Source of the DNA: a virus
Virus record (IMG/VR): IMGVR_UViG_3300016665_000824
Coordinates: 1-64,000 of that record
Length of the DNA stretch: 64,000 bases
Direction: 5' to 3' (one strand)
Every line of letters starts with the position of its first letter. Positions within the stretch are counted from its first letter, which is position 1. Of this stretch, positions 36,716 through 63,696 are shown piece after piece. Made by a program: the position numbers and the translations under genes. The notes beneath the pieces are model-generated. The model saw nothing but the letters and a program-made list of their open reading frames with translations. It was not told the DNA's origin and searched no databases.

Positions 36716-36718
36716 AAA
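36701..36718. promoter_or_regulatory. CCACAAA-N4-CCACAAA direct-repeat motif (operator candidate)
   Basis: same architecture at 59935-59952 and, reverse-complemented, at 63679-63696. Confidence 0.5.
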
Positions 36719-36787: not shown

Positions 36788-37321
36788 GTGACTACACATA
36801 TGATACGAGCAATTCGTGCAATCGTCGAGCTTGATGATTTTTCTTTCGATGCGTACCAAATGCCAGACGGTGAAAAGCGCATTGGGTTTTTGGGAGCTTC
36901 CAACGTTTTAGGCTATGCTGACAACTGGTTGGGCAGGTTACATAAAGGCGATTCTCGGCAGCTAAAGGCTATACAGGGTATGGGTTATAGCGGCTTACAA
37001 ACCGAGGTCGAAATCATTCAACGGGGTAGGGAGATTAGCGCCTACGGGACTCGTGCAAATACTATCTCTCTTCGGGATTTTATTAAACTTGTAACTTATG
37101 AGGCTATCAAGAAAACAAATACCCGCGCAATTACTATTCTTGCCTCAATGGCTGAGTTTGGTTTTGAGCAAGTCATTGACATGGCTTTTGCTGGCAACCC
37201 AATGGATGAAATCCTTTCAAAGATCGTTCACTTTAGTCTATGGACTCAAGAAGAATGGGAGCAAGCTTTGGCGGATAACAGGGAAGACTTAGCTAATTTG
37301 CGACTTGGGATGTGGCGATAA
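36788..37321 (+). CDS. opposite-strand moron gene inside tail module; hypothetical protein (177 aa)
   Basis: only + strand gene within the 35-kb minus operon; bracketed by bidirectional terminator and the CCACAAA motif region; start GTG 36788 or ATG 36800. Confidence 0.6.
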   Translation: MTTHMIRAIRAIVELDDFSFDAYQMPDGEKRIGFLGASNVLGYADNWLGRLHKGDSRQLKAIQGMGYSGLQTEVEIIQRGREISAYGTRANTISLRDFIKLVTYEAIKKTNTRAITILASMAEFGFEQVIDMAFAGNPMDEILSKIVHFSLWTQEEWEQALADNREDLANLRLGMWR

Positions 37322-37351
37322 GGTAACAAGGACTTGAGTCCTTGTTACCTT
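37320..37351. terminator. bidirectional terminator hairpin (14-bp stem) between convergent moron and tape-measure genes
   Basis: AAGGTAACAAGGAC ttga GTCCTTGTTACCTT; both stop codons lie in or at the stem. Confidence 0.65.
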
Positions 37352-40300
37352 ACTCCGCTAGTAACACCCGCTACTCGTCTCAAGACATTATTAAGCGTGT
37401 CATTAACAGCCTTCTGGACATCATTGCCCACACCCGCCGCAGAACTAATGTTGCTTTGAGTATTGATAGCGATCGGGGCATTAACCGTAATATTTCCACT
37501 TGTACCCAGAGCCGCACCCGTAGGATTGCCCTGTTGCTGAGGAACAAGATCTTTACCGCCAAGACTACCGAAAGCCTGCGCCAATGCCTCCGCTCTTTGA
37601 AGTTGTCCTTCGTCAAGCAAGGCGATCGGCTTGTCGAGTTTCTTCTGGGCTTCCTCAAATGCCTTGTCGTCGATCTTCAATGTCACGGGGTTCTCGGAGA
37701 TTTGCTTCGACACACGGTTAAATTCCGCTTCCAGTCCTGCGGTTAAATCTTTAACCTTGAGATCTGGGGCAACCAACACCTTGGAGAAGCCTTCATCGAT
37801 TTGCTGAGTTAACTTGTCGAACGAAGACGCGATCGCCTGTTCTGGCTTTGCTTCCTCCGTAGGTTTGCCACCGTACTTAGCGTTAAGCTCCTCAAACGAG
37901 TTGGCTTGAGCAGGATACTTCTTGTTAAGCTCCTCAAAGCTGCCTGCCATGCCCTTGTCGGGATATTTCTTGGCTAACTCCTCAAAGCTAGTAGCGAACG
38001 GTGCGTTATCAGGCTTTGGTTCGGGTGCAGCCGTAAATACTCCGCCCTGCTCAACCTGCCCAAGCAATGCCGAGGTGGGGTTCTTAAACGAAGCACCGCG
38101 AACATTAACAGGTTGGCTTGCCGCAGCCACAGCATTACTTACATCCGTGGTAGTCAATGCTGCTGTACCCGTATTTTGAGTTAAGCGAGCAAGCTGCTCT
38201 CGTTGTAGGCGCTCTTGCAGCGCAGGATCTCTAGTTGCGCCAATAACATCGCCGATCGCCGTATTAGTTTCGCCTTGCTGTTTATTGGCAAGAGCTTGAC
38301 GATCATTCTTGTTGACAATCTCGTTAACCTTGGCTTCGTCGGCAATGAAACCCTTTTCTTGCTGCAATCCACCCAATTCAAGAAAGTTCTTCTCCTGTCC
38401 AAGCTTGGCTTGAGCAAGTTTAAGCTTCGCCTCTTCGGACTGGGGACGTAGTTTAACCTCCAACTCGGCGGCTTTGATAGCAGCATCCTGTGAGGCAATG
38501 TCCACCTTCTTCTTGGCGATCGCGATTTCATTTTCGACCTTCTTGCGTTCAAGCAATAGGTCACGCTTCTGGATTTCCCGCTCCAAGGACTCGGCTTCAA
38601 ACTTTTGCTGTTGCTTGAGGGAATTAAGCTTAAGAACGGCAAGTTTTTCCGCAAGAATCAGCTTTTTCTCTTCGAGTTCGAGATCGGCAAAGTTGCCCTG
38701 ACCACCTGCGGCACGGATGGCAGCTTGTTGGCGATCGTAGATCTTGTTGAGAGCAGCAAACTCTGACTCGCGTAATGCCACTGTAGACTGGGCAAGTTTA
38801 TTTGCCGACTCGGATAGGCGGCTTTGATTCTCAAGCCCCTTTTCTAGTGCGGTGAATAATAGTTTTTGACGTTCAAGCTTGAGGTTTTGCTGCTCAATCG
38901 TGACCGCATACTTTTGTGATTCCAAGACTAGGCGATCGCGCACTGCGGAAACTAATCCTTCAATCGCCGCGAGTTCGGCTTCAGCGAGCTGTTTGGATAG
39001 TTCAGCAACCTTGATTAGATTAGCGTTCTTAGTTTCCTTGCTAACACCAACGCCCTTCTTCTCAAGATCGGCGATCGCCTTCTGCTTTTGTTGTTCGAGT
39101 TGCAGCTCTAAAGTGATACTGCGTTTACGTTCGGCAGTTTCTTGAAGCTTAATTTCAGATTCAAGCTTAATTCCCGACTTGCGGAGTTGAGCTATCTGAG
39201 CAAGACGCTGAGTCTCGCCAACCTTTTCGGCGGCAAGGGTCTCCTTAATCTGTGCATCCAATCCCTTAACAAAGCGCTCGGAACGGGCTTTGGCTATTTT
39301 TGCCTCAGCGTCCTTCCGTTTGTTGTCGGCATCCTCTTCTAATCGCGCTTTCTGGGCGGCGGTAGCCTTAACTAGATCAAGCTCTTTTTTGTTTGCGTCA
39401 GCAATAGAGTTTTTCGCCAAGTTTTGACGTTCGGCATCTGGCTTTGCGATTGAGGAAAGTTGATCCCTCTTTGTCTGCAACGTCCGAAGTTCAGACTCTT
39501 TCTTGGCGATCGCGTCCTGTTCCGCCTTGATCTGTGCGGTGTACTCCGAGGAATTAAAAAATGGCGCGTCTTTTACGGTGTTGAATCGCTGTAATGTCTC
39601 CGCATTCCCAGCTTTCAGACTAGACAAGGCTTTTTCCCCATCTTCAATCTGCTTCGTAATTCCCTCTAGCTGTCCCTGAGTATCCTCTGACAACTTTAAG
39701 GTGCTATCCAAGGTTCCTTTCTGGCTCTGGAGGCTATTAAGTCTTGATTGCAACACAGCAAGCTCGTCCGTTACTTTCTTAACGTCCTCGGCAGCGTTAT
39801 CTCCCGCAACACCCGTACTTATAGACTCTTGGAGAGCCTTCTTCCTTGCCTCTGCATCTTTGATCTGTTGACTGGTATCGTCGATCTTTCCTTGCAAGAC
39901 AGGAGCTTGAGCTTCCCTGACCTGCCGTATCTTTGAAGGATCTCCAGTTGCAGCAGCTAACTGCGCTTCCGCCAACTCGCGATCGCGCTTAATCTGTTGT
40001 TTCTGCTCATTAGCGTTGGTCTCCAAGATCTGCTGTCTTGCTCTTAGAGCCTTTTGATCGGCTTCAGACTGGGCTTGAATCTTCTTCTCCTCTAATTGTC
40101 CAGAGAGGGCGATCGATTCAGACTCAGAGATTCGCCCCGTGGCGAGCAAAGCTTGAATCTGGGAAAGTTGAGCGTCATAAATAGCTATGCGGCGATCCGC
40201 CTCCTTTTTGTACGCGGCAGTAATCGCTTCTTGAGCCTTTATCTGTAAATCGCGATCGGCAGAGACATTCGTAGCTACTTTTTGAAACGCTCCCGCAACT

Positions 40301-43300
40301 TCGTCTGCACGGAGAATCCCTGCATCTTGAAGGGCGTTAGCCGTTTCAAGCAACTCGCCCAACTTCGCCTTAAATAGCGCAGGATCTCCCGCAGACTTGT
40401 TTAAAGCGTCAAGGGCTGCATTATATTTTGAAGTTGCCTGCTCGATCGCATTACCAATACGAGGAAGATCAATAGCCTGAATTTGCAGGTTTACCGACTT
40501 GTAGGATTCTTGAAGTTTTCTAAGGGCTTCAAGTTCTCGATCTCTTTCTGCGTCTAAACCTTCTACAGCTTGAACCTGATTAATGATTGCCTCGATATTG
40601 TTGTTTCTTTCGGCGATCTCCTTCTTCTTATTCTCGATCTGAATATCAAAACGCGCAGCACCATCTTTGTCGCTTAGCGCTTCCGCCTTGGACTTTTCCT
40701 GCTCTAATTTAATTAAATCCTCTTGGAGTTTCTTCTGAGCAGACAGTCCTATTCCTAGATCAACCCGCCGAGAAGCTGACTGATTTAAGACGTTTTTATT
40801 ATCTTGCAATCTTATTTGGACGGCTTTCTCTTCAAGATTTCCTGCGCGATCGCCTAGACCTAACTTGTCGGAAGCGCCAAACGTTACCGTTCTTAGCCCC
40901 TCTCTTGCCGCGTCACCTGTAAGAGCAAAACCTTCTGTAACGCGAGTACCAATATTGTCTCTCTCTTTTTTAACCTTCTCCCTCAACGCGTCTTCGGAGT
41001 TGGTTGGTTTGCTTTGTAATCCCCTCAACTCTTTGAGTTTTGCGAGCTGTTGATCATACAGCTTTAAAGTGGGGTCATCTTGGAGGATGCTCTTGTCTTG
41101 GATTGAGGCAACATATTTTTCGCGTTCTGAGGTTAGGTTTGCTAGCTCAGAAGCGGCATCCTTTCCTTGCGATTTGTTTAGGATCGCAACCCTTGCGTCA
41201 CTATCTTTGAGCGCATCGTTGAGTTTGTCTACATTGGCTGTAGCTGCTTTTGTTTCCTGATCGACGTAGCCAACCAAGGTTGTTATTGCGGCGAAAGCTG
41301 CGCTTAACAATAATGTAGGACCAATTTCTGCGGCGAGGGCGGCGAAGGATTTGCTGATACCTTTGACATTCTCGGAAATAAACGAGGTAGCGCCTACAGC
41401 ACCCTTTTTGAGGTTTGAATAAAGTCCACCGACACTAACGTTCGCGTTTTGAGTGAAATCAGCAAAGCTAGACTTAGCTCGCGAGCCAAAATCTTTGACA
41501 CCAGAAAGAGCATCTTGGAAACCTGTCTTTAACCCAGCACCTAAATTTTTGAGGCTTAAATCGGGGAGAGAAATAGACTTGACTTGATTGACAAACTTAT
41601 CTATAGCGATACGAGAATTAGCCAAAGAAGCGGGAATATTTAGCTCTCTAAAGAACTTATCGAGTCCCAGTCTCGCGTTTGCAAGAGAGGTAGGGACGTT
41701 GATCTGGGAAAATGCTTTTTCAACCCCGTTGCGGAGGTTTACCAGCGAGGCAGGAATGTTGATATTTGCAAAGGCGTTCCGAATGCTAGCTTTAGTATTC
41801 TCAATTTGCGCGGGGAGATTTGCAAAGATACCAGTTTTTTGACTCGAATCCTGACTGAACCTTCCCTTAATGTCAGATATAAAACTACCAATAGAGTCGC
41901 CCAAGGACTTCAAAGAAGTTTTTGTCTTTGTGGCGATCGCTCCAATATCTTCTGCGAACTGTTTTGTGAACGGGACGGGAATTGGATTGGCAATAATCTG
42001 ACTTCGGAGCGACTTGATTCTGTCGGTAGTCTCCTGATAACTTTTAAGAGCCGCCGCACGAGCTTCGGGGGTTAACGACAGATCTGTAGAGTCTTTTTGG
42101 CTCACGATCGCCTGCTGTTTTAGTCCAGAGACCTCTCGTTTAGCGGCGACAACCTGAGTAGGATTTAGAGTCGTTGACTGAACTGGCTTGCCCCCAAGTA
42201 TTTCTCGAACACTATCGTTTAGCTTCTTGATGCGCCCAAAGGTTTCGCCAATACTGGCTCCAGCACCGCTAATTCCCGTGTTAATTGTCTTAAATACATT
42301 GGAGATTGTGCCACCAAACAGCTTGGTAACAGCGATCGCGATTAGCAATCCGCCAACTACTTTTTGAAAAGGATTGGAGTTCTCGCCAAAAGTAAAGAAC
42401 GGCAATATCGTGTCTGCAACCACCTTAATTACTGGTGCTAATACCGACCCTACCGTATCCGCAAACTTACGAATAGCTGCGGTTACATCCTGAATGATTT
42501 TTTGTAGACCTTTGTTCTTCAGGATTAACTGATCGAAGAAGACAAAACCAACAAATGTTCCAGCACCCAACAAGGCTGTTGATACGGCAAAAGACCTTGC
42601 CGCAGCTCCTGCCGCTTTTAATGAATTAGAGAAGATGCTGTTTACTTTCTCGGTATTTGTAGCGACATCGGCAAACTTGCCCAAGCTCTTGGCTGCGTCC
42701 GCAATCAACGGGCTAAACGAGCCAAATAGTTGGGACTTACCAACAATGCCTGAGAAAGCTGTTAAGGCGATCGGCGCTGCCTTCGTAAATCCTTGCAGTG
42801 CGGTTCCTAGCGCAGGAAATGCTTGAGTAAGTCCAATCAGTTTTACCCCAAAGCCACCTAGTGTTGGCAAAGCGGCAGTTATAACTCCCGCGAATGGCGA
42901 GAACGCACCGAGAACTTTGCCCAACTCTTTTTGGACTAAGCCAGCAGCACCAGGGATCTTGTTTAGATTCTCCGCCAACAACAGGAATCCAGCAGACCCT
43001 CGACCGACAACCGAACTTAAATTAGCAAAAGTGTTGACAACCCCGTTAGTACGCTTGTCAAGCAGGAAGAGAACTTCTCCCAAACCTGGTACAAGATTAA
43101 ACATCAACGAGAAGCCTTTGTTTAATGCCCCGATCGCGCCCGAAAGAACTTTTGCGCCGACGGAGATGCCGATCCAAATCCCTCCAAGAGGACCTACAAC
43201 ACCTGCAATTTGTTCAAACACATTAATAGCTGGCTGAACAACAGCAAGAGTAAGGCTCATCGCATCGGAAAAAGCCTTTACTGCGCCAGCGAGAGACTTG

Positions 43301-45780
43301 AATAGGTATTCTGGAACCTGCCCAAAGATCTGGAAGAATGGCCCCGCGAGACTTTTTAGGGTCGCAATCACGTTCTTGAATACGTCAAACAGTATTCCTG
43401 CGAGACTCCCTACTTGAGCAGCGATCGCGTCTTTATTCTTTGAGAAATACTGGTAAAACCCGTCAAGTTCCGCTACTAAAGGTGCGAGGAATTTCTCCCC
43501 AGCGAGTCTGCCGATCTCATCAACTAGCTCTTGAATATTGCTAACAATCCCACCCACGGACTGAGCAGCTAGCTTGTTTCCAGACTTAAATGCTTCTAAT
43601 CGACCTAAAAGCTCTTTGACGAAGGTTCCTTGAGACTTCCACTTAGCCACCATCTCATTGTTGAGGTTAAGCGATTTGGCAAGAGCTGAGTTTTGGTCAA
43701 TAGTTCCCGAAGTTATACTAACAACCTCTTGACGGGCTTGATATAAAGGTATGCCAAGCGTTCCGAGTGCGGCGGCGAACGAGGTTGTAATATTAGCAGC
43801 GTCATTCAAGGACGCGCCAATGTTGCTTGCCTGCCCAGCAACGATCTGAAAAACCCCGACAAGATCTTTACTGGTTACGCCGACCAGCTCTAACGAGTCT
43901 TTACGAATTTTATCGATCGCCCCTTCAACCGCAGGGCCAACCGCCTTGATCGCTTGAGTTGGATCTGATACGCGATCGCCATTAACTACGATTCTATTGG
44001 TTGCCGCTAAGCTCGCCTGAGTAGAGAGTAGTTGCTCTTGGAGCCTGATGTTTTGCCCAATCAACAGATCGAAAGGGCCGTTTTGTACAAATCCTTGGAG
44101 TGCCTGCAATCCCAATCCCAAGAAAGCAAGTCTCTGAGATACTTCAAAGATCGCGTTGGTTGCCTTGCCAGCACCTTCGCTAATTAGATTGAATACTTCT
44201 AGTGGTTCCGTCGCCCCCGCCACTGGAGCAACCACTGCGGCGGCAATATCTACAGGTTCTTGCAGCTTCGGGGCTATCTCTTGAGTCTTTTGAAACCCCT
44301 TAACGATAACATCATCAACACTATCGATGACAGTACCGACTTCGGCAAGGATTGTTGATCTCAGTCCATCAACAAAATTCTTACCTGCGATCGCGCCAGT
44401 ATCTTTTAAAAGCGAACTAAATGTTCCGCCAAAAAACTCGTCAATCTTGGTTGCAAGTTTTTGCAGTGAGCCATCCCCGCTTCCGATAGAATCAATCGCC
44501 GCGCCCAACCCTCCGTCAATAGCATCGACAGCTTTTAGGGCTAAATTCCTGAGAGGCGCAAGGATGCTAGTATCTTCTACGCTAAACAAGCTATTGAGAG
44601 CCTGTCCAACGCCTCCCTTTTGAGTCTCTATTAAAGGGCGGAGGATGGCAAAAGCGGATCTTAAATCCTCTGGAATTGCTTTTTCTAGTCCATTAAATAA
44701 CTGTCCAGACAACGCATTTCCAAAATCTTGCAACTCATTAGAGGCAACAATCGACCCCAAATTTGCCACCCCGATCTTGTTGGCAATCAGTTTTGCTAGT
44801 GGTGGTAGTGGCAACTTATCTACAAGCTGAGGGATTCGCCCCGCTAGGCGGTTGATCAGCTCAGATACAGAGCCGCCTAACTGTTCGTCAAGAATTTTAA
44901 ATTGATCGGTCGCCTCAGATCTGCTGCCGACGATTGCCCTGCCGACCGATCCTCCTAAAGCGCTAGATAAGCGCCCTACAACTCTTTGTCCGTCCTCAAC
45001 GTTTGGCGCGATTGCGTTAACGGCAAAAGCTTTAGCAGCACCCGATACCGACCCACCAGCCAACTGCTTCGACACTTCCGACAGCAATCCAGTTTTTGCC
45101 GCAGTCCGAAATGAGTTGGCGACAATTGAGGTTAAATCCGCCCCGAAAGCTTGGTTAACAATACCTTTTAAAGCGTCGGGGAGTCCTCCCCCAACAACGC
45201 CCGAAATGAGTGAGTCGGCGATCGCGTTATCTAGCGTTCCAGTAAAAGCCTCAACTCCCACTCCAAGCTTGCGCTGAATTTCTTGATTTAGCTTTGAAGC
45301 CCTAACATTTGCTTCTAACGCTTTACCGAAACTGTTTGCAGAATCGCTAAGTATCTGCGTAATTCTCTTGCCGTTATCCGAAAATATTGCAGACTGAGCT
45401 TGCTCTGCCGACTGCTTAGATAAGAATCCTCCTCCGACATCTTTTCCTGCAGAGGTAATCCCCTTGATTACCTTTGAGAGCGGAGCTAGTTTTGAAACTG
45501 CACTGTCGGCGACATTCGAGATCTGTTCTAAAAATATTTTGCCCGACTGCGTATCTAGTACATCTCGAACCGACTGAATTGCGTCTCTCAGCCCTCCAAA
45601 CGTGCCAATCGCGGTTGCCCCTACCGTGCTGATCGTTCCGCCAAGGGCTTGTACAGATCCCTTTGTTACGTCCGCAACAACACCAACACTTTTTAGACCA
45701 GCAGCTATCTCCGAAACTTGTTTGCTTGCTTGATCTTTCGCCTGTATTAAGATCTCAACAATATTGGTTTGCGGAGCCAT
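37345..45780 (-). CDS. tape measure protein (2811 aa)
   Basis: giant ORF with Gly/Ala-rich hydrophobic N-terminal half and ~1000-aa coiled-coil (Q/E/K/A-rich) half, upstream of baseplate/fibre genes. Confidence 0.75.
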   Translation of the reverse strand: MAPQTNIVEILIQAKDQASKQVSEIAAGLKSVGVVADVTKGSVQALGGTISTVGATAIGTFGGLRDAIQSVRDVLDTQSGKIFLEQISNVADSAVSKLAPLSKVIKGITSAGKDVGGGFLSKQSAEQAQSAIFSDNGKRITQILSDSANSFGKALEANVRASKLNQEIQRKLGVGVEAFTGTLDNAIADSLISGVVGGGLPDALKGIVNQAFGADLTSIVANSFRTAAKTGLLSEVSKQLAGGSVSGAAKAFAVNAIAPNVEDGQRVVGRLSSALGGSVGRAIVGSRSEATDQFKILDEQLGGSVSELINRLAGRIPQLVDKLPLPPLAKLIANKIGVANLGSIVASNELQDFGNALSGQLFNGLEKAIPEDLRSAFAILRPLIETQKGGVGQALNSLFSVEDTSILAPLRNLALKAVDAIDGGLGAAIDSIGSGDGSLQKLATKIDEFFGGTFSSLLKDTGAIAGKNFVDGLRSTILAEVGTVIDSVDDVIVKGFQKTQEIAPKLQEPVDIAAAVVAPVAGATEPLEVFNLISEGAGKATNAIFEVSQRLAFLGLGLQALQGFVQNGPFDLLIGQNIRLQEQLLSTQASLAATNRIVVNGDRVSDPTQAIKAVGPAVEGAIDKIRKDSLELVGVTSKDLVGVFQIVAGQASNIGASLNDAANITTSFAAALGTLGIPLYQARQEVVSITSGTIDQNSALAKSLNLNNEMVAKWKSQGTFVKELLGRLEAFKSGNKLAAQSVGGIVSNIQELVDEIGRLAGEKFLAPLVAELDGFYQYFSKNKDAIAAQVGSLAGILFDVFKNVIATLKSLAGPFFQIFGQVPEYLFKSLAGAVKAFSDAMSLTLAVVQPAINVFEQIAGVVGPLGGIWIGISVGAKVLSGAIGALNKGFSLMFNLVPGLGEVLFLLDKRTNGVVNTFANLSSVVGRGSAGFLLLAENLNKIPGAAGLVQKELGKVLGAFSPFAGVITAALPTLGGFGVKLIGLTQAFPALGTALQGFTKAAPIALTAFSGIVGKSQLFGSFSPLIADAAKSLGKFADVATNTEKVNSIFSNSLKAAGAAARSFAVSTALLGAGTFVGFVFFDQLILKNKGLQKIIQDVTAAIRKFADTVGSVLAPVIKVVADTILPFFTFGENSNPFQKVVGGLLIAIAVTKLFGGTISNVFKTINTGISGAGASIGETFGRIKKLNDSVREILGGKPVQSTTLNPTQVVAAKREVSGLKQQAIVSQKDSTDLSLTPEARAAALKSYQETTDRIKSLRSQIIANPIPVPFTKQFAEDIGAIATKTKTSLKSLGDSIGSFISDIKGRFSQDSSQKTGIFANLPAQIENTKASIRNAFANINIPASLVNLRNGVEKAFSQINVPTSLANARLGLDKFFRELNIPASLANSRIAIDKFVNQVKSISLPDLSLKNLGAGLKTGFQDALSGVKDFGSRAKSSFADFTQNANVSVGGLYSNLKKGAVGATSFISENVKGISKSFAALAAEIGPTLLLSAAFAAITTLVGYVDQETKAATANVDKLNDALKDSDARVAILNKSQGKDAASELANLTSEREKYVASIQDKSILQDDPTLKLYDQQLAKLKELRGLQSKPTNSEDALREKVKKERDNIGTRVTEGFALTGDAAREGLRTVTFGASDKLGLGDRAGNLEEKAVQIRLQDNKNVLNQSASRRVDLGIGLSAQKKLQEDLIKLEQEKSKAEALSDKDGAARFDIQIENKKKEIAERNNNIEAIINQVQAVEGLDAERDRELEALRKLQESYKSVNLQIQAIDLPRIGNAIEQATSKYNAALDALNKSAGDPALFKAKLGELLETANALQDAGILRADEVAGAFQKVATNVSADRDLQIKAQEAITAAYKKEADRRIAIYDAQLSQIQALLATGRISESESIALSGQLEEKKIQAQSEADQKALRARQQILETNANEQKQQIKRDRELAEAQLAAATGDPSKIRQVREAQAPVLQGKIDDTSQQIKDAEARKKALQESISTGVAGDNAAEDVKKVTDELAVLQSRLNSLQSQKGTLDSTLKLSEDTQGQLEGITKQIEDGEKALSSLKAGNAETLQRFNTVKDAPFFNSSEYTAQIKAEQDAIAKKESELRTLQTKRDQLSSIAKPDAERQNLAKNSIADANKKELDLVKATAAQKARLEEDADNKRKDAEAKIAKARSERFVKGLDAQIKETLAAEKVGETQRLAQIAQLRKSGIKLESEIKLQETAERKRSITLELQLEQQKQKAIADLEKKGVGVSKETKNANLIKVAELSKQLAEAELAAIEGLVSAVRDRLVLESQKYAVTIEQQNLKLERQKLLFTALEKGLENQSRLSESANKLAQSTVALRESEFAALNKIYDRQQAAIRAAGGQGNFADLELEEKKLILAEKLAVLKLNSLKQQQKFEAESLEREIQKRDLLLERKKVENEIAIAKKKVDIASQDAAIKAAELEVKLRPQSEEAKLKLAQAKLGQEKNFLELGGLQQEKGFIADEAKVNEIVNKNDRQALANKQQGETNTAIGDVIGATRDPALQERLQREQLARLTQNTGTAALTTTDVSNAVAAASQPVNVRGASFKNPTSALLGQVEQGGVFTAAPEPKPDNAPFATSFEELAKKYPDKGMAGSFEELNKKYPAQANSFEELNAKYGGKPTEEAKPEQAIASSFDKLTQQIDEGFSKVLVAPDLKVKDLTAGLEAEFNRVSKQISENPVTLKIDDKAFEEAQKKLDKPIALLDEGQLQRAEALAQAFGSLGGKDLVPQQQGNPTGAALGTSGNITVNAPIAINTQSNISSAAGVGNDVQKAVNDTLNNVLRRVAGVTSGVR
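37840..37995 (-). repeat. three tandem ~45-nt repeats encoding SFEEL-x-KKYP inside the tape measure gene
   Basis: GCTCCTCAAA recurs three times on + strand; protein repeats SFEELAKKYP / SFEELNKKYP / SFEELNAKYG. Confidence 0.6.
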
Positions 45781-57450: not shown

Positions 57451-58323
57451 CTAGAAGTTCGCGTAAACTTTGACAACCCTGTTGTTGTTGATGTCGATAA
57501 CAACATCGGAGCGGAAACTGGCGCGGGTCGAAGCGTCGATCGCGCTGTTCGCATTGGTCTTTTGGGCATAACCCTTAGAGCCAGCAGCAACAGAGATATA
57601 AACGGTGTCGGACTCGGCGATACTGGTTTCCAAAGTAGGAACCCAAATACCAGAGAGATCACCCAATCGTCGTTGAACATCAACCGCCAACTGGTTAGCT
57701 TCGTATCCAGCAGTCGCCGCTTCGCCAACCACGTCTTTTTGAACGGAGGTGTTTAGGCGGGTGATGCCGCAGATAGCGGAGATTGCGTCACCACTGTTAG
57801 GAAGGCGAATGCTGCCACCATTGAGAGTTCCAGTCACACGAGGAGTTGTGCCTGCGACCTTGGTGACAAACAATCCAAAGCCAATGCGAGATGGGGCTGC
57901 GGCTGCGGTAGTTGGAGTGGTAGGCACGGTTAAAGGTGCTGCACCGCCACCACTGACGCTCACAAACATCGGGGTATTATCCTTGCGATGAGTGAAGACC
58001 AAAGTTGAGGTGTTATTTACCACCGAGGCAATCTGGCTGGCGCGAAGGTTAGCGCGGAACGCTGCGTACAAGCCTGCGGCAAGGTCGGCGCGAACAGTTG
58101 AAGCGGTGGTAAAAGAGAAGGTGATTGGGTTATCGGAGGTATCAGCATCATAGATAGTGATGCTGTACACAGTGGCTGTAACGGGAGTTGCAGGAGTTGT
58201 AACCGTCCAAACTTCCTTAACGTAGCCACTGTCATTGTGATAGGCTTCAACAGAGCCAACACCCATGCCCTCAACCATTCCAGCGAGAGCCTGTGTGTAA
58301 TACTGGCGATAATTCTTTTGCAT
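57451..58323 (-). CDS. putative head protein (290 aa; Thr/Ala/Val-rich, decoration or second capsid component)
   Basis: ORF between protease/scaffold-like and capsid-like genes. Confidence 0.6.
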   Translation of the reverse strand: MQKNYRQYYTQALAGMVEGMGVGSVEAYHNDSGYVKEVWTVTTPATPVTATVYSITIYDADTSDNPITFSFTTASTVRADLAAGLYAAFRANLRASQIASVVNNTSTLVFTHRKDNTPMFVSVSGGGAAPLTVPTTPTTAAAAPSRIGFGLFVTKVAGTTPRVTGTLNGGSIRLPNSGDAISAICGITRLNTSVQKDVVGEAATAGYEANQLAVDVQRRLGDLSGIWVPTLETSIAESDTVYISVAAGSKGYAQKTNANSAIDASTRASFRSDVVIDINNNRVVKVYANF

Positions 58324-58336
58324 TGTTTAGTTGCTC

Positions 58337-59827
58337 CTATTTTCTAGTGGAACGAGCTAAGGGTTTGGAGTAGTTCTTGCCGTAGCGCTCGTTATTGCGT
58401 TCTGCGGCATCCTTCTTCTCCTCGGAATCTTTACGCTCAGTGCGACCAACCTTTACGGCGGTCTCTAGGCGATCTGCGTAGCTAGGCGCAGGAACAAGAG
58501 TTGCGTACTCAGCCGCGCTATCGAAACGGGCTTCGATGTAGCTATCGTTGCGATCGCTTAAATCAACTTCAGGATGAATAGCCTTCAGTGCAGCGCGACG
58601 AATCTCGGTGGAGTCCATCGTGGTTTCGATACCTGCATCCTCGATGTTGATACCCTTAGAGGTAAGAAGGTCGTGAGCCTTGCCAATTGCATCGAGGCGA
58701 TCGGCAGTCTGGCGATTGATTTCTTCAGCGAGGAATTCACGGACTTCATCGGAGTCAAGAACGACTGCCAACTCAGAAGAGTCCATCTTCTTGCCCTTCT
58801 TCATCTTTTTCTTGATGAAGTCAGGCATCTTGCTTTCACCCTCGGATTCCTCATCGTCAGGCTCGCCTTCGCCGTCTTCCTTGTCACCACAAGAAGCATC
58901 CTGACGGATAGTTTCGAGTTGAGTTAGGGTTTCGGTTAGCTCATCTTCAAGAGCGTCAGCACGACCCTTGGTGCGATTAACTTCGGAAGTAAGGTCGGCG
59001 ATCGCGTCAGCCTTCTCTTTGAGTTCAGCCTCAAGAGAATCCACGCGAGACTTATATTTAGATAGTTCTTCGAGTTTTTGCGACAGGGGGTAGAGCGCGA
59101 TGTCCTCCACCTGAAACTCGCCAGCGCCATCCACGCGCAATGTTTTTGTTTTCAAATCGGACATAGCGGAGCTACCCTCATTTTTAATTGTTGGAATAAC
59201 GACAACGCTGTTCGGAGCAGAGGCTTTAACTTGGATCGAGTCAAAGCGAACTAGCTCAACAACCTCATCCCCATCGGCATCGGCACTATCGAGGTGCATC
59301 CTCACAGTGCTCCCCCCGCGTGGGTTGTCAGTTGCGGCGCAATGGTCTGGTCGAATCTTGGTTTGAACACGGTCAAAATCGCCCCGATAGGTGATCTGGT
59401 CGATCGCGTCGAACCATTCGCCATTCGGGGCTTCTACGATTTCGCATTCATATCCAAGAGAAAGACCGTTCTTTTTGCCTGCCTTTACGGACTGGGCAAA
59501 ATCGGGGTTAGAGATTCGGGCAATATTCTGTACAACCCCCTCGTTATCGTTGTACTCACCCGCCCTTGTTAATTCACCAACAGCGCTATCTCGTTTTCCC
59601 CGCAATAGCGAAGATGGATGCTCGACAGTCATCGGCAATCCTTTTAGGGACTCAAGGAAATCGCGATCGCGGTTTGCCGAAGCAGGTCGCAATTCACGAA
59701 CTCGCTTTCCGTCACCTCGAAAGTATGTCAATATGCCGTCTCGACAAACCGTGCTGTACGCATACAGCCCGTCCGCACGTTCTTCAGTGCGGGTCGCGAA
59801 ACTTACGTCATCAAAACGAAATGCCAT
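58337..59827 (-). CDS. putative prohead protease / scaffolding fusion protein (496 aa)
   Basis: globular N-terminal ~190 aa, then acidic coiled-coil region (EELSKYKSRVDSLEAELKEK..., DKEDGEGEPDDEESEGE); first gene of the operon. Confidence 0.55.
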   Translation of the reverse strand: MAFRFDDVSFATRTEERADGLYAYSTVCRDGILTYFRGDGKRVRELRPASANRDRDFLESLKGLPMTVEHPSSLLRGKRDSAVGELTRAGEYNDNEGVVQNIARISNPDFAQSVKAGKKNGLSLGYECEIVEAPNGEWFDAIDQITYRGDFDRVQTKIRPDHCAATDNPRGGSTVRMHLDSADADGDEVVELVRFDSIQVKASAPNSVVVIPTIKNEGSSAMSDLKTKTLRVDGAGEFQVEDIALYPLSQKLEELSKYKSRVDSLEAELKEKADAIADLTSEVNRTKGRADALEDELTETLTQLETIRQDASCGDKEDGEGEPDDEESEGESKMPDFIKKKMKKGKKMDSSELAVVLDSDEVREFLAEEINRQTADRLDAIGKAHDLLTSKGINIEDAGIETTMDSTEIRRAALKAIHPEVDLSDRNDSYIEARFDSAAEYATLVPAPSYADRLETAVKVGRTERKDSEEKKDAAERNNERYGKNYSKPLARSTRK

Positions 59828-59934
59828 TGGCTAATTCAACTTAGGTCAATGGCATTACTTTCTTGTTTTGTCAAGATGAATATTCGGTTTTATGGAAATT
59901 AGCGATCGCTTTTCTTTAAATACGCTCAATACCG

Positions 59935-59952
59935 CCACAAATCCACCACAAA
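59935..59952. promoter_or_regulatory. CCACAAA-N4-CCACAAA motif in divergent control region
   Basis: CCACAAATCCACCACAAA between the virion operon start (59827) and + strand regulator (59991). Confidence 0.5.
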
Positions 59953-59990
59953 GCCACGTTTCAATGCGAAAATCCGAGTAGAGTTACCAG

Positions 59991-60554
59991 TTGAATATGG
60001 CAGTAAAAAGTAAAGTCAAGCTCGGCGCGTATATCGGGCGAAGGCTGGAGCAGGAACGTACCGATGCCGATTACGGTCAGCAAGAAGTCATTAATGAGAT
60101 CCACAGAATAACGTCATCCCCAGAAGTTATTGCTGCGCTAGAGATATCTGTCGCCGCAAACCTAACCAAGTTTCGAGAGTTTCGAGGCAAACGCCAGAAA
60201 GATTTAGCCGCAGATCTAAACAACTTGCGCGATACCTTGCATGGCGTAGGTATAGATACTGAAGTGTCTGGCGATGTGTCTTGGATGTCTAAGGTTGAGA
60301 ATAGCGATCGCATCATGCAGGCGGTCGAACTACGACTCTTTAGCCTTGCTTTGGGTGTTCCGATGGAGGCATTTTTCCCTAATGAGTTAAACGTACTAGC
60401 AGAAAGTAATGACCCGTTCGCCCCTTACCGATATCTGGGACGCAGTATCGAGGGTATTCAAAAGTATCGACATGTCAGCGATCGCAACAAAATTGCGATC
60501 GTTTATTGTTCAGAAGGGTTGTCTTTACCTGATGGTGTGGGGAAATATCTATGA
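59991..60554 (+). CDS. putative HTH (XRE-like) DNA-binding regulator (187 aa)
   Basis: divergent from virion operon; segment LTKFREFRGKRQKDLAADLNNLRDTL resembles an XRE-type helix-turn-helix; start TTG 59991 or ATG 59997. Confidence 0.5.
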   Translation: MNMAVKSKVKLGAYIGRRLEQERTDADYGQQEVINEIHRITSSPEVIAALEISVAANLTKFREFRGKRQKDLAADLNNLRDTLHGVGIDTEVSGDVSWMSKVENSDRIMQAVELRLFSLALGVPMEAFFPNELNVLAESNDPFAPYRYLGRSIEGIQKYRHVSDRNKIAIVYCSEGLSLPDGVGKYL

Positions 60555-60784
60555 GTGTTTATTCAAGCCCCGAATTCACTGGTACAATCATTCGAGAAAG
60601 CCATGAGAGTGGCGTTTTGCTAGTCACGGTCGTAGAGTTACCAGGGCTAGTCTTAGTGCTCAACTCCCATAGCGAAGAAGAAATCGTATTGCCCCAAGCT
60701 ATTAGATCGTATCTAAGTCTTGAGGAGCAATTGAAGATTAAGCGATCGCGACCCAAAGTCACAGCAGTAAAAATATCCATCTAA
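60551..60784 (+). CDS. HicB/UPF0150-like protein (77 aa)
   Basis: ATGA coupling to upstream gene; ...GVLLVTVVELPGLVLVLNSHSEEEIVLPQAIRSYL matches the DLPGC...T.EEA...A...Y pattern of HicB-type domains. Confidence 0.55.
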   Translation: MSVYSSPEFTGTIIRESHESGVLLVTVVELPGLVLVLNSHSEEEIVLPQAIRSYLSLEEQLKIKRSRPKVTAVKISI

Positions 60785-60812: not shown

Positions 60813-62786
60813 ATGTCCTATGAAGCCCTGCCGTCGGGAAGCTTAGTCAAAGCTCCCATCGATCTGATCGAAACTCATCCACAGAACCCCGCCCCTACAT
60901 CACAGAGGTATAGCGAAATATTGGGGTATCCCGTCAGGGTTGAGGATGCTCAGGTCGAGTCCCTGATTGAACTACTAAGGGCGGAGGGCTACAACCCCAA
61001 TAAGCCTATGCTGCTCAGACCAGTTGGCGATCGCCTCCAAGCCGTTGAGGGCAACCACCGTTTTGTGGCAATGTGGATGCTCACCAAGGTACTCAGAGAG
61101 TTTGAACAGGACTATATTCCCGCGATCGTGGATGAAGATCTATCCGAAGAGGACGCTCTGATTAAGTTGAGTACTCTTAATACTCAGCGCAGGATGGAGG
61201 GTTGGCGGTTAGCTCGATTGGCTTACTACACTTGCGTTGAGAAAGGCATGTCTCAGCCTGAGTATGCGGCAAAGGTGGGATACGTCCTTGAGGGTGGAAA
61301 GCCAAATGGTCCACGGATTTCTAAGTTGATTCAAGCCTGTCGATTTGTTGACTATATTGCTGCCAACTCACCGATTGAAGAACTGCAAGACGTTGAGGCT
61401 TTAACCGAACCTAAGAACGGTTTGTTTAGGTCAGTTGATCGCGTCGTTGAGTTTATGTACCTCGACCAAGAGGACTGGTTATGGATTGCAGAGTTCTACC
61501 TCCGTCATCACATGCAGATCTCGGCAAAACAACGAGTCAACCTAGCCAAGGCGATCAAAGATACAAAGGATTTGCTCAACAGATCTACCTCGTATCCCGA
61601 TCGCTGGAGTCAATGGTTGCGCTGGGAGTATATACGCGGAGAGGTCGCTAGTCAGTGTGCGGCAAACGAGGAGTCCCAATTAGCCAAGAGTTTATTACCC
61701 CAACTAATTTCTGAGGCGAATAAAACCTACGAGTCGGACGACTTGCCATTCATTCACAACTATCACGAAGTTACTGGTAACAGGGTTGAAGAGAAAACTG
61801 CCAATCTCAAGGAGGAATTTCGTGCTGAGTTAATCAAGCAGATCGAAGGGCGTAGTGCCAAGTTTTACAGGCTTGTTGATGTTGCTGAAGCTGCGCGGAC
61901 TGTGATCGATCGCTATGCGTTTATCGATCAGAAGTACGAAAACTTCAAAAAGATCGAAAACACGGTACATATCGAGCAAGAGATTGTTGCGATCGCACCT
62001 CCGACGACCTCAAAGTCAAAATCTACGCCAACAACATCTACGCGATCGCCTGTTGCAGAAACAAAGCCCAAGCTTGATACCGAAAAGCGAGTGTGGATTG
62101 AGGAACAATATCAGCCAAAAGGCATGGTTTCTTCTCTAGAAGATTATGCTTTCCACGGCGGCAAACAGTACGGGCTGATATTCTCCCGTCTTGGCAATAG
62201 CGGCATGGAGGACTTCTTTCAAAATACCGACTATATCTATAGAACGCTTACCGAAGATGGAGTATTCGCACTGATATTGCCGCATAAATATTCCTTCGCG
62301 GTAATTGAGGAGCTTGAGTATAAGGTAGCTAACTCTAGTCGCTTACACCTTCGAGGGTTGGATGGCGGCATATATTCCGATGATGAAAAGCCGAGATTGG
62401 CGATCGCCGCATCAAACCGTACATTGATTCATCAAGAGTACGAAGAATTATTATTGTTCACCACTCAAGACGATACTCCTCTGCCATTGCGATCGCCTCT
62501 CCCTCGGATGGCGCTGGAGCCAGTTCACGATATTCTGACCGCTTTTGGCGACCTGAGCGAGCCGTTCTTAGATCCGTTCGCCTTCAGTGGTGAGGTCGTA
62601 GTCGCAGCAAAAAGTCTTGGGTATCGGTGCGACTATCTCGTACAGACTCCAAACCAGTTGGACTTGGTTACGCGCTGGTGCGATCGGACTGAGTTTCCTG
62701 AGAGTCTACTTAGATTTGCGGAAGAGTTTACTCATTTTGATGAGGCACTGTTTAGTGATCGAGCAACTACTCGTGCAAGATCCTGA
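60813..62786 (+). CDS. ParB-like N-terminal domain protein with C-terminal degenerate N6/N4 DNA methyltransferase-like motif (657 aa)
   Basis: N-terminus ...LLRPVGDRLQAVEGNHRFVAM (ParB/Srx-like); C-terminus FLDPFAFSGEVVVAAKSLGYR resembles MTase motif I with G to A/F changes; no clean DPPY. Confidence 0.6.
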   Translation: MSYEALPSGSLVKAPIDLIETHPQNPAPTSQRYSEILGYPVRVEDAQVESLIELLRAEGYNPNKPMLLRPVGDRLQAVEGNHRFVAMWMLTKVLREFEQDYIPAIVDEDLSEEDALIKLSTLNTQRRMEGWRLARLAYYTCVEKGMSQPEYAAKVGYVLEGGKPNGPRISKLIQACRFVDYIAANSPIEELQDVEALTEPKNGLFRSVDRVVEFMYLDQEDWLWIAEFYLRHHMQISAKQRVNLAKAIKDTKDLLNRSTSYPDRWSQWLRWEYIRGEVASQCAANEESQLAKSLLPQLISEANKTYESDDLPFIHNYHEVTGNRVEEKTANLKEEFRAELIKQIEGRSAKFYRLVDVAEAARTVIDRYAFIDQKYENFKKIENTVHIEQEIVAIAPPTTSKSKSTPTTSTRSPVAETKPKLDTEKRVWIEEQYQPKGMVSSLEDYAFHGGKQYGLIFSRLGNSGMEDFFQNTDYIYRTLTEDGVFALILPHKYSFAVIEELEYKVANSSRLHLRGLDGGIYSDDEKPRLAIAASNRTLIHQEYEELLLFTTQDDTPLPLRSPLPRMALEPVHDILTAFGDLSEPFLDPFAFSGEVVVAAKSLGYRCDYLVQTPNQLDLVTRWCDRTEFPESLLRFAEEFTHFDEALFSDRATTRARS

Positions 62787-62869: not shown

Positions 62870-63595
62870 TTAATCAAAGAATTTTCTAACCGCCGCTTCT
62901 ACATCCTTGTTTGGCATCGGGTAGCACCAAATCGGCATCATCCGACCATTGCAAATCCTTTCTTCTTGTTTGCCAAGAGCCTCGCAAGTAGCTTTGACAA
63001 ATTTTCCTAATGTGGTGCGGTTTTTAGCTGTTACGGGCAAACTCAAAGATTCAGCAATTTCTACGGCTCCCATCCACTTTGTCTCCGAGGCTGGAGCGAT
63101 CGCCTTGATAACAGCCATTGCGTCGTTGATCGCAACATCTACAAGCATTTGACATAAGCGAGGGTCGGAATCAGCAAGCATATCCTTGATCTCAAAGACT
63201 GACTTCGCTGTTTCGAGTGCTATTACACGAGAGGGCAATGCGGGAACAGGAGTGGGGGTAGTAGGCACTGATTGTAACAATGCCTTCGCCTTAGAGAAGG
63301 CTTCAACCAGATCGAGCTTGCTCTGAACAACGGCTACCGTGTTTCGGCTCAGGGTCATTAAAGCGGTCGCTTGGTCTTCGTTGAGTAGCGCAAATTTAGG
63401 AGGGTTCCCTGTCGCCTTTTCGGGGACTCCGATTTTAAATCGGATACCCGCGAACCTTGCTTCAATCATGTCTTGGTACTTCTTGATGTTCCGCATAAAG
63501 CTCTCGTGATCAATCCCAAGTCGCTCGGCAATCAGTCGAGAGTCAACAAGCAATTCGCCATCTTCATTGATGATTGGTACAATACTTTCGGACAT
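62870..63595 (-). CDS. phage regulatory protein, Rha/ORF6N-like (241 aa)
   Basis: N-terminus ...LLVDSRLIAERLGIDHESFMRNIKKYQDMIE... matches the Rha-type DNA-binding pattern. Confidence 0.6.
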   Translation of the reverse strand: MSESIVPIINEDGELLVDSRLIAERLGIDHESFMRNIKKYQDMIEARFAGIRFKIGVPEKATGNPPKFALLNEDQATALMTLSRNTVAVVQSKLDLVEAFSKAKALLQSVPTTPTPVPALPSRVIALETAKSVFEIKDMLADSDPRLCQMLVDVAINDAMAVIKAIAPASETKWMGAVEIAESLSLPVTAKNRTTLGKFVKATCEALGKQEERICNGRMMPIWCYPMPNKDVEAAVRKFFD

Positions 63596-63678: not shown

Positions 63679-63696
63679 CTTGTGGCGATTTTGTGG
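63679..63696. promoter_or_regulatory. TTGTGG-N4-TTTGTGG motif (reverse-complement form of the CCACAAA pair) upstream of the final partial gene
   Basis: CTTGTGGCGATTTTGTGG in the gap between the Rha-like gene and ORF starting 63727. Confidence 0.45.

What the first reader, a model, noticed from the sequence alone, without database searches (positions are those of the whole stretch)
59991..60784. Coupled pair: XRE-like HTH protein plus HicB-like protein, with no HicA-like partner seen
The 77-aa protein at 60551 matches the HicB/UPF0150 core pattern (VVELPGL...SEEEIVLPQAIRSYL) and is ATGA-coupled to a 187-aa protein with an XRE-like helix-turn-helix. I see no small HicA-like ORF nearby. A second weaker HicB-like C-terminus occurs at 9630-9866. 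A phage-borne antitoxin-like protein without its toxin is a known anti-defence strategy (neutralising a host toxin), or the pair could be a non-canonical toxin-antitoxin or regulatory module.
Basis: partly seen in the sequence, partly recalled or inferred. Interest (0 to 1): 0.55.

Follow-up and report, generated by a model that had tools for sequence, protein, structure and literature searches.

The report
Cyanophage HicB-like protein without HicA
A small phage protein is a distant relative of the HicB antitoxin and has no HicA toxin gene in the window; it belongs to a conserved three-gene operon with an HTH regulator and a ParB-like protein, so its partner is probably not a classical toxin.

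Summary
The ORFs and the ATGA overlap are real. All three plus-strand genes are under purifying selection: A (59997-60554), B (60551-60784) and C (60813-62786).

B matches no curated HicB model and no solved structure. A profile search does link it to small HicB-like proteins (PF15919). The best E-value is 2.2e-4 against 5.8 billion sequences, and hhalign gives 92% probability, 11 sd above shuffled controls. Those relatives have an overlapping hicA gene downstream. The fold model is weak (pLDDT 60). Its strand and helix order fits HicB, but fold searches find no HicB.

No HicA is encoded in the 64-kb window. The second "HicB-like" ORF at 9630-9866 is not supported.

The real unit is larger than the finding. 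An A-B-C operon is conserved in a metagenome-only clade of freshwater cyanophages and in a second lineage only 27-43% identical. A is an XRE-like HTH protein. C has a ParB/KorB-like N-terminus and a methyltransferase-like C-terminus that lacks the catalytic motifs. Each lineage has its own short repeat, once in the leader and once inside B, where synonymous change is suppressed.

My best reading is an autoregulated three-part module in which B is the protein-binding subunit. The orphan anti-HicA reading stays possible and untested.

The parts
59914..59996 (+). Conserved non-coding leader and promoter region of the A-B-C operon. It faces the divergent head gene (DUF2213, 58337-59827, minus strand).
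   Evidence: Mean pairwise nucleotide identity is 0.79-0.84 across six lineages, as high as in coding sequence. Further upstream it falls to 0.24-0.6.
59935..59952 (+). Tandem CCACAAA-N4-CCACAAA motif with an 11-nt period; a promoter- or operator-class element.
   Evidence: There are 6 matches with up to 2 mismatches in the window against 0.5 expected. All are intergenic and co-oriented with the downstream gene. The motif is conserved upstream of A in 15 related loci.
59978..59990 (+). Copy 1 of the direct repeat (G)TAGAGTTACCAG, ending 7 nt before the ATG of A.
   Evidence: Only two exact copies occur in 64 kb. The 12-mer TAGAGTTACCAG is invariant in all six lineages.
59997..60554 (+). Gene A, 185 aa (187 aa if started at TTG 59991). 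It has an XRE-like HTH core at about residues 48-128, apparently with an insertion of about 17 residues between helices 2 and 3. A conserved C-terminal domain of about 55 residues has no detectable relatives.
   Evidence: HTH_31 E 0.055. C.BclI E 0.0026 in two pieces. HTH_3 E 0.018 in the L023 homologue. dN/dS 0.03-0.10. The AlphaFold2 model failed at pLDDT 37. An XRE regulator sits in the same slot in phage CL131.
60551..60784 (+). Gene B, 77 aa. A small HicB-like protein with no DNA-binding domain. Its ATG overlaps the stop codon of A (ATGA).
   Evidence: Profile search: all 29 hits outside the family carry PF15919, best E 2.2e-4. hhalign 92%. AlphaFold2 elements are E12-19, E22-30, E33-38, H47-59, E71-76 at pLDDT 60. 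dN/dS 0.10-0.31.
60632..60644 (+). Copy 2 of GTAGAGTTACCAG, inside B at codons V-E-L-P-G. It lies in the most conserved nucleotide stretch of the operon.
   Evidence: Exact in every lineage. dS of B is 3-8 times lower than in A and C in three independent close pairs. The distant triad L023 has a different repeat in the same layout.
60813..62786 (+). Gene C, 657 aa (624-635 aa in relatives). It has a ParB/KorB-like N-terminal and HTH region, a helical middle, and a C-terminal region resembling only the motif-I stretch of N6/N4 DNA methyltransferases.
   Evidence: Spo0J 1vz0 E 4.7e-5 over residues 48-165. KorB domain E 6e-4, ParB_N E 0.008, N6_N4_Mtase E 0.065 over 35 residues. No [DNS]PP[YFWH] and no FxGxG motif in any homologue. 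dN/dS 0.04-0.07.

Best explanation
The finding is part of a conserved, probably autoregulated three-gene operon of an uncultured clade of freshwater cyanophages. The host is rich in the HIP1 repeat. The operon is transcribed divergently from the head genes in which it is embedded.

- A is an XRE-type DNA-binding protein. It occupies the slot that holds a plain XRE regulator in the related phage CL131.
- B is a remote homologue of the small HicB antitoxins that lack a DNA-binding domain (Gerdes classes 1 and 2). That fold works by packing its helix against a partner protein.
- C sits where hicA sits in class-2 hicBA modules. It is not HicA. It is a ParB/KorB-like DNA-binding protein fused to a methyltransferase-like domain that has lost the catalytic motifs.

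I infer that B is the protein-binding or neutralising subunit of a three-part module. A would supply operator binding, which small HicB proteins lack. B would bind and hold in check a partner encoded in the same operon, most likely C. The short repeat, found once in the leader and once inside B, would be the cis site through which the module controls its own expression.

Shown: the genes, the coupling, the conservation, the remote homology, the absence of HicA and the paired repeats. Inferred: who binds whom, and any toxicity of C.
For: - The A-B-C order is kept in all relatives at 73-97% identity. It is also kept in a second lineage at 27-43% identity (L013, L023), where B abuts C by 2 nt and overlaps A.
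- All three genes are under purifying selection.
- B links to PF15919 proteins. Those proteins link to the N-domain of E. coli HicB at E 4.6e-8.
- The nearest named relatives are class-2 hicBA pairs with hicA overlapping downstream (classes from PMC10865869).
- No HicA is in the window.
- C is ParB/KorB-like and lacks methyltransferase motifs IV and I.
- Leader plus B-internal repeats occur in both lineages with different sequences. Synonymous change in B is suppressed.
- The operon shares a promoter-class motif with early-region genes.
- CL131 carries an XRE regulator in the same slot.
Against: - No interaction was modelled or tested.
- The B fold model is of low confidence, and fold searches do not return HicB.
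- No curated HicB model matches B.
- C shows no resemblance to any known toxin. It may simply be a DNA-binding regulator or a packaging or partition factor.
- Conserved gene order in related phages can reflect shared ancestry rather than functional coupling. The distant lineage is known only from contigs of 1.1-1.4 kb.
- HicB-fold antitoxins are so far known to pair with HicA (PMC10865869).
Confidence: 0.35

Rival explanations
1. B is an orphan antitoxin used as counter-defence. It is made early and binds a HicA toxin of the cyanobacterial host, blocking abortive infection. A and C are unrelated neighbours.
For: B is HicB-like and lacks a DNA-binding domain, like the small HicBs that only neutralise HicA (PMC10865869). 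There is no HicA in 64 kb. The operon carries the same promoter-class motif as early-region genes. Phage-borne orphan antitoxin-like counter-defences are documented for other toxin-antitoxin families (PMC11825919), and reviews say phages often acquire antitoxins (PMC11594946).
Against: B is so divergent that no HicB model detects it. Its nearest HicB relatives, at about 40% identity over about 50 residues, come from unrelated high-GC bacteria rather than cyanobacteria. Tight coupling to A and C is conserved at 27-43% identity, and a stand-alone decoy does not need that. The host and its HicA repertoire are unknown.
Confidence: 0.2
2. The operon is a ParB/KorB-type DNA-binding regulatory, partition or packaging module. 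C is the clamp or silencer, A is its small HTH partner as KorA is for KorB, and B is an accessory subunit. The HicB ancestry of B would then say nothing about toxin neutralisation.
For: C matches Spo0J and the KorB HTH domain. The methyltransferase-like domain lacks its catalytic motifs. Paired cis repeats sit 654 nt apart in the window and 750 nt apart in L023. ParB-fold fusions to N6_N4 methyltransferase domains are typical of phages (PMC12704722). The slot holds a regulator in CL131.
Against: All matches for C are below curated thresholds. No parA-like gene was seen next to the operon in the window or in related loci. The repeats are direct and not palindromic, unlike most parS and OB sites. 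This reading gives B no role.
Confidence: 0.22
3. A and B form a two-gene toxin-antitoxin pair of class-1 layout, with the toxin upstream and small HicB downstream and overlapping. The conserved C-terminal domain of A would be a new toxin domain.
For: The ATGA overlap of A and B is conserved in all lineages, with GTGA in L001. The C-terminal ~55 residues of A are the best conserved part between the two lineages, with invariant D139, P140, F141, Y144, H159 and E173 (A9 numbering, A counted from the ATG at 59997), and match no family.
Against: XRE-type HTH proteins are normally antitoxins or regulators, not toxins (general knowledge). A shows no similarity to HicA. The A model is unusable.
Confidence: 0.1
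4. The HicB resemblance is convergent or due to chance. B would be an unrelated small alpha/beta protein.
Against: The E-value of 2.2e-4 is already scaled to 5.8e9 sequences, and all 29 hits are PF15919 proteins. An exhaustive HMMER search without a word index independently found the bridging protein P0020 at E 5.7e-5. The hhalign score is 11 sd above shuffles over 56 columns, in the register beta1-beta2-beta3-alpha1. The secondary-structure order agrees (PMC10865869).
Confidence: 0.1

Closest known systems
Small HicB antitoxins without a DNA-binding domain, classes 1 and 2 of Gerdes 2024 (PMC10865869); Pfam PF15919 HicB_lk_antitox
   Same: The size is similar (63-103 aa; B is 77 aa) and neither has a DNA-binding domain. 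The predicted element order is beta-beta-beta-alpha-beta. The motif ...V.ELPGLV...(E)E....AIR.YL aligns in register. B is tightly coupled to its neighbouring genes.
   Different: There is no hicA next to B or anywhere in the window. The downstream position is taken by a 657-aa ParB-like protein. No curated HicB model scores B. Identity to true HicBs is only about 35-40% over about 50 residues.
Mycobacteriophage Adephagia gp90/gp91, a phage-borne class-2 HicAB-like pair (PMC11373665)
   Different: Adephagia has the HicA-like toxin gp91 immediately downstream, and its toxicity and rescue were shown. Here there is no HicA, and no integrase or other sign of a temperate lifestyle was seen in the parts of the window examined.
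Orphan antitoxin-like counter-defence proteins of phages, for example the anti-DarTG1 enzyme of T4-like phages (PMC11825919); T4 Dmd against RnlA/LsoA (from my own knowledge)
   Same: An antitoxin-like protein is carried by a phage without its cognate toxin.
   Different: Those act alone. B is locked into a conserved operon with two other proteins. No host toxin target is identified.
Three-gene toxin-antitoxin operons with a separate regulator: PaaR2-PaaA2-ParE2 and omega-epsilon-zeta (from my own knowledge, not checked in the literature tools)
   Same: The order is regulator, then an antitoxin lacking a DNA-binding domain, then an effector. The regulator is an HTH (PaaR2) or RHH (omega) protein.
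   Different: The third gene here is not a known toxin. Nothing about toxicity or autoregulation was tested.
ParB-CTPase-fold proteins fused to N6_N4 methyltransferase domains, enriched in phages (PMC12704722); KorB with its partner KorA (my own knowledge)
   Same: C has a ParB-like N-terminal region followed by a KorB-type HTH. It also has a C-terminal stretch resembling methyltransferase motif I.
   Different: All scores are below the curated cut-offs. Motifs IV ((D/N/S)PP(Y/F/W/H)) and I (FxGxG) are absent in all homologues, so methyl transfer is unlikely. No HicB-like neighbour is described for these fusions in that paper: 'HicB', 'toxin' and 'antitoxin' each occur 0 times.
Aphanizomenon phage vB_AphaS-CL131 gp037, annotated 'transcriptional regulator'
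   Same: It occupies the same genomic slot, on the opposite strand between the MuF-like and DUF2213 head genes. It is an XRE-type HTH whose helices 1-2 and 3-5 line up with A.
   Different: gp037 is 103 aa and stands alone. A has extra N- and C-terminal regions, an apparent insertion of about 17 residues in the HTH turn, and two downstream partners.

Membership tests
HicB antitoxin (type II HicAB) | Match to a curated HicB model (PF15919, PF21748 UPF0150, PF08972 DUF1902, NCBIfam, PHROGs) | tested here: not met
   There is no hit for B or four of its homologues, even at E up to 10. Only the bridging protein P0020 touches UPF0150, at E 0.11.
HicB antitoxin (type II HicAB) | Detectable homology to bona fide HicB N-domains | tested here: met
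   The profile search recovered 29 hits outside the family, all carrying PF15919, with best E 2.2e-4 for 5.8e9 sequences. hhalign gives 92% and E 6e-7 over 56 columns, 11 sd above shuffles. That set hits E. coli HicB 6hpb at E 4.6e-8. The link is transitive. Direct comparison with the E. coli sequence alone is not significant.
HicB antitoxin (type II HicAB) | [quoted passage not shown] | tested here: inconclusive
HicB antitoxin (type II HicAB) | Adjacent or overlapping hicA toxin gene | tested here: not met
   No HicA was found in the six-frame phmmer scan or in Pfam scans of 147 small ORFs. The flanking genes are A and C. The nearest HicB relatives do have an overlapping hicA.
HicB antitoxin (type II HicAB) | Neutralises HicA RNase toxicity | not testable with these tools
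   This needs co-expression assays. The host and its HicA genes are unknown.
XRE-family HTH regulator (protein A) | Five-helix XRE HTH domain recognised by curated models | tested here: inconclusive
   HTH_31 E 0.055 (14 bits against a cut-off of 27). HTH_3 E 0.018 in the L023 homologue. C.BclI E 0.0026 with the match split in two. The model is unusable at pLDDT 37. A positional homologue in CL131 is a plain XRE regulator.
ParB-CTPase fold / ParB-methyltransferase fusion (protein C) | ParB N-terminal domain with the GxxR(xxA) motif | tested here: inconclusive
   Spo0J E 4.7e-5 with the family profile, and the alignment places EGNHRFVA opposite GERRYRA. Pfam ParB_N scores only E 0.008, and only in the L013 homologue, below the cut-off. 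Nucleotide binding was not tested.
ParB-CTPase fold / ParB-methyltransferase fusion (protein C) | Active amino-methyltransferase domain: motif IV (D/N/S)PP(Y/F/W/H) and motif I FxGxG | tested here: not met
   A regular-expression scan of all seven homologues finds neither motif. The motif-I position reads DPFAFSGEV. Pfam N6_N4_Mtase scores E 0.065 over 35 residues only.
Three-gene toxin-antitoxin operon (regulator, antitoxin, toxin) | Third gene toxic and neutralised by the second; first gene represses the operon | not testable with these tools
   Only the layout, the coupling and the paired cis repeats were established.

The most novel reading that the evidence does not exclude
A HicB-fold protein has changed partners. 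In this cyanophage clade a small HicB-like protein without a DNA-binding domain no longer pairs with HicA. Instead it works inside a new three-part module, together with a separate XRE-type DNA-binding protein. There it binds and controls a ParB/KorB-fold protein carrying a dead methyltransferase domain. The module reads its own operon through a lineage-specific repeat placed in the leader and inside the hicB-like gene.
Probability: 0.2. Interest if true: 0.7.

Novelty: new variant of a known kind. Interest (0 to 1): 0.4.

Why it matters
HicB-fold antitoxins have so far been catalogued through their HicA partners. A survey of HicA contexts lists 14 of them (PMC10865869), and none resembles this one.

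If B controls a ParB-fold protein, that would be a new pairing for a very common antitoxin fold. It would also give a first functional handle on the phage-enriched ParB-methyltransferase-like fusions, whose role is unknown (PMC12704722).

If B instead neutralises a host HicA, it would be, as far as the literature searched here shows, a candidate first phage counter-defence against HicAB. HicAB is itself only proposed to be an anti-phage system.

Either way the claim is modest today. The evidence is remote homology plus gene context, in phages with no cultured representative.

Tried and rejected
- **Direct family and structure searches for B** found nothing: Pfam, PHROGs, NCBIfam, PADLOC, and PDB by sequence and by profile.
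- **Structure prediction of A** failed at pLDDT 37, so nothing could be said about its fold.
- **The exhaustive representative search with the B profile** gave only its own family, P0020 and one spurious repeat protein, P0019.
- **Cultured phages hold nothing similar** to A, B, C or the DNA. The species-representative genomes also hold nothing. Further scans of viral contigs returned the same four contigs.
- **The second HicB-like ORF at 9630-9866** is rejected. Only an 11-residue motif matches.
- **The antisense ORF 60559-60780** is rejected as the cause of the low dS in B. It is broken by stop codons in L016, L007, L003 and L023.
- **A sigma-70 promoter or terminator** in the leader or after C was not found by the consensus scan. 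No inverted repeats were found in or around B.
- **An active methyltransferase reading for C** is rejected on motif grounds.
- **The similarity of A residues 43-103 to ribosomal protein uL29** (E 0.001) I regard as helical-hairpin composition, not homology.

Full report
**1. What is in the sequence**

On the plus strand, ORF A runs from 59991 (TTG) or 59997 (ATG) to 60554. ORF B (77 aa) runs from 60551 to 60784. The ATG of B overlaps the TGA of A as ATGA. Nearly all homologues of A begin at the ATG, so A is probably 185 aa. After a 28-nt gap comes ORF C (60813-62786, 657 aa). The three genes point away from the head genes on the minus strand: a DUF2213 protein at 58337-59827, a cement-like protein at 57451-58323, and the capsid gene. 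A Rha-like regulator gene (62870-63595, minus strand) follows C.

The window carries 135 copies of GCGATCGC (HIP1) against 1.2 expected, so the host is a cyanobacterium. The nearest cultured capsids, at about 33% identity, belong to Aphanizomenon phage CL131 and Planktothrix phage PaV-LD.

**2. Are these real genes?**

Homologues exist only in metagenomes: 8 clusters for B and 10 for A, at 75-97% identity. They lie on phage contigs of up to 92 kb, always in the order A-B-C and in the same slot between the DUF2213 gene and the tail_S/MuF/portal genes. Pairwise dN/dS is 0.03-0.10 for A, 0.10-0.31 for B and 0.04-0.07 for C. All three are therefore coding and constrained. Nothing similar was found in cultured phages or in 185,579 species-representative genomes.

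**3. Is B HicB-like?**

Direct tests fail. There is no Pfam, PHROGs, NCBIfam or PADLOC hit and no PDB sequence match, even with a family profile.

An exhaustive HMMER search of 1.84 billion representatives with the family profile found one true outlier, P0020 (75 aa, E 5.7e-5), plus one spurious repeat protein. P0020 aligns end to end with B.

A profile of the family plus P0020 then recovered 29 further proteins. All of them carry PF15919 (HicB_lk_antitox). The best E-value is 2.2e-4, scaled to 5.8e9 sequences. The candidates were pre-selected by shared words such as LPGLV and AIRVY, which is a caveat. However:
- hhalign of the B family against these 29 proteins gives 92% probability over 56 columns.
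- The score is 37.2, against 10.8 +/- 2.4 (maximum 19.3) for 200 column-shuffled controls.
- The 29 proteins hit the N-domain of E. coli HicB (6hpb) at E 4.6e-8.
- Two of them score PF15919 at 6.6e-11 and 1.4e-8.

My verdict is that remote homology is supported and the fold test is inconclusive. B corresponds to the small HicBs of Gerdes classes 1 and 2, which lack a DNA-binding domain.

**4. Is there a HicA?**

No. phmmer with three HicA seeds against every six-frame segment of the window gave only noise, with best E 0.22. One seed came from locus L011 and two were written from memory. A Pfam scan of 147 ORFs of 48-110 aa gave no PF07927 hit.

By contrast, the nearest PF15919 relatives (L009, L011) have an uncalled hicA that overlaps the hicB stop by 4 nt, scoring HicA_toxin at E 7.8e-12. 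That is the class-2 hicBA layout. In the phage, that downstream position is held by C. The window is 64 kb while related contigs reach 86-92 kb, so a HicA elsewhere in the genome cannot be excluded.

**5. The second candidate**

ORF 9630-9866 shares only the 11-residue motif AEGSTPEEAIA with HicB-like proteins. hhalign probability is 1.4% and there are no family hits. It is not supported.

**6. Protein A**

The evidence for an XRE HTH is marginal but consistent: HTH_31 E 0.055, HTH_3 E 0.018 in the distant homologue, and the controller protein C.BclI at E 0.0026 with the match in two pieces.

Phage CL131 has a 103-aa XRE regulator, gp037, on the opposite strand in exactly the same slot. Read by eye against it, A residues 48-128 contain helices 1-2 and 3-5, with about 17 extra residues in the turn. 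This is my reading; hhalign aligns only the first 28 columns.

The C-terminal ~55 residues of A are the part best conserved between the two lineages, and they match nothing. The structure prediction failed at pLDDT 37.

**7. Protein C**

The family profile hits Spo0J/ParB (1vz0) at E 4.7e-5 across the N-domain and HTH. Pfam gives KorB domain at E 6e-4 and ParB_N at E 0.008. It gives N6_N4_Mtase at E 0.065, but only over the 35 residues around motif I.

No homologue has a (D/N/S)PP(Y/F/W/H) or an FxGxG motif. The motif-I position reads DPFAFSGEV. ParB-fold fusions to N6_N4 methyltransferases are typical of phages and their function is unknown (PMC12704722). C looks like a very divergent member of that group that has probably lost catalysis.

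**8. A second, distant triad**

Two short contigs (L013, L023) carry an A-like gene (178 aa, about 32-34% identity), a B-like gene (P0020 type, 43% identity over the aligned 51 residues) and a C-like gene (about 27-35% identity). They are in the same order. In L023 the A-like and B-like genes overlap by ATGA, and only 2 nt separate B and C. The linkage therefore outlasts most of the sequence similarity.

**9. Cis elements**

- About 85 nt upstream of A are as conserved as coding sequence.
- That region holds a tandem CCACAAA-N4-CCACAAA. This motif occurs six times in the window against 0.5 expected. Every copy is intergenic and co-oriented with the next gene: three early-region genes, a plus-strand moron at 36800-37321, the Rha-like gene, and A.
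- The 12-13-mer (G)TAGAGTTACCAG occurs exactly twice in the window, 7 nt before the ATG of A and inside B. Both copies are invariant in all lineages.
- In three independent close pairs, dS in B is 3-8 times lower than in A and C. The antisense ORF over B is not conserved, so it does not explain this.
- L023 has a different 17-mer in the same layout, once in the leader and once inside the B-like gene.

I read these as paired binding sites, or possibly a second promoter, through which the operon is controlled. What binds them is unknown.

**10. Interpretation**

My best reading (confidence 0.35) is an autoregulated three-part module. A supplies DNA binding, B is the protein-binding subunit inherited from small HicBs, and the partner of B is encoded in the operon, most likely C.

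The rivals are:
- an orphan anti-HicA decoy (0.2);
- a ParB/KorB-type DNA-binding module in which B is merely an accessory (0.22);
- an A-B pair with A as a new toxin (0.1);
- chance resemblance (0.1).

None of these can be separated without interaction or toxicity data.

**11. Novelty and score**

HicB-like genes are commonly annotated in phages, and solitary hicB genes are known (PMC10865869, PMC11594946). The fold itself is therefore not new. New here are the conserved context with an XRE-like protein and a ParB-like protein with a dead methyltransferase-like domain, the absence of HicA, and the paired cis repeats. I rate it a new variant of a known kind, with interest 0.4.

Noticed in passing
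window 1-64000: The cyanobacterial HIP1 octamer GCGATCGC occurs 135 times against 1.2 expected, spread over the whole window, including inside A, B and C. This implies a HIP1-rich cyanobacterial host and long co-evolution with it.
   Followed up: partly
window 13041-13058, 16777-16794, 19168-19185, 36701-36718, 59935-59952 (+) and 63679-63696 (-): A tandem CCACAAA-N4-CCACAAA motif with an 11-nt period occurs 6 times against 0.5 expected. Every copy is intergenic and co-oriented with the downstream gene, often just after a TTGAAT-like hexamer. It looks like a promoter or regulator-site class shared by early-region genes and by the plus-strand islands inside the structural module.
   Followed up: partly
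window 60551-60784 versus 59997-60554 and 60813-62786: Synonymous divergence in B is 3-8 times lower than in the flanking genes in three independent close pairs. For example, window against L014 gives dS 0.076 for B, 0.59 for A and 0.58 for C. The constraint is at the nucleotide level and is not explained by the antisense ORF.
   Followed up: partly
L023 172-188 and 922-938; also L023 87-118 and 151-182: The distant triad has its own 17-nt direct repeat, one copy in the leader of the A-like gene and one inside the B-like gene. It also has a 32-nt tandem repeat in the leader containing GCTAGC. The layout matches the window but the sequence differs.
   Followed up: partly
window 36800-37321 (+) and 37322-37350: A single plus-strand gene (about 173 aa, no family match) is inserted in the minus-strand tail module. 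It is preceded by the CCACAAA tandem and followed by a perfect 12-bp hairpin, GGTAACAAGGAC-TTGA-GTCCTTGTTACC.
   Followed up: partly
window 62717-62786: C is 657 aa in the window but 624-635 aa in all relatives. The last ~23 residues (after ...FPESL) have no counterpart elsewhere, and nucleotide conservation collapses at about 62716. The stop codon was probably lost or shifted in this genome.
   Followed up: no
L009 2770-3129, L010 616-975, L011 2746-2904: The hicA genes downstream of the nearest HicB-like relatives were not called by the source annotations. They also look truncated or frameshifted: 52 aa in L011, and out of frame after GSHY in L009 and L010. They may be decaying toxin genes next to intact hicB.
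   Followed up: partly
L028 6174-6485 (phage CL131 gp037): The related cultured phage CL131 has a lone 103-aa XRE regulator on the opposite strand in the same slot, between the MuF-like and DUF2213 head genes. This suggests the slot ancestrally held a regulator and that B and C were added in this clade.
   Followed up: partly
L001-L008, between gene C and the Phage_tail_S gene: The stretch after C is a variable island. It holds Rha-like in the window, LAGLIDADG plus KilA-N in L002, other ORFs in L001, L007 and L008, and nothing in L003 and L004.
   Followed up: no
window 59997-60554, residues 43-103 of A: The A profile hits ribosomal protein uL29 at E about 0.001 over a helical stretch. This is probably compositional or helical-hairpin similarity, but it was not resolved because the structure prediction failed.
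   Followed up: no
window 37345-45780 (-): A 2811-aa ORF rich in coiled-coil-like sequence sits in the tail module. It is presumably a very long tape-measure-like protein. It was not analysed.
   Followed up: no
window 13275-13655 (+): This is one of only two of the ten early-region proteins scanned that had any Pfam match at E up to 0.01: Phage_L5_gp82, E 1.7e-6. The early region is otherwise almost entirely made of ORFs without relatives.
   Followed up: no
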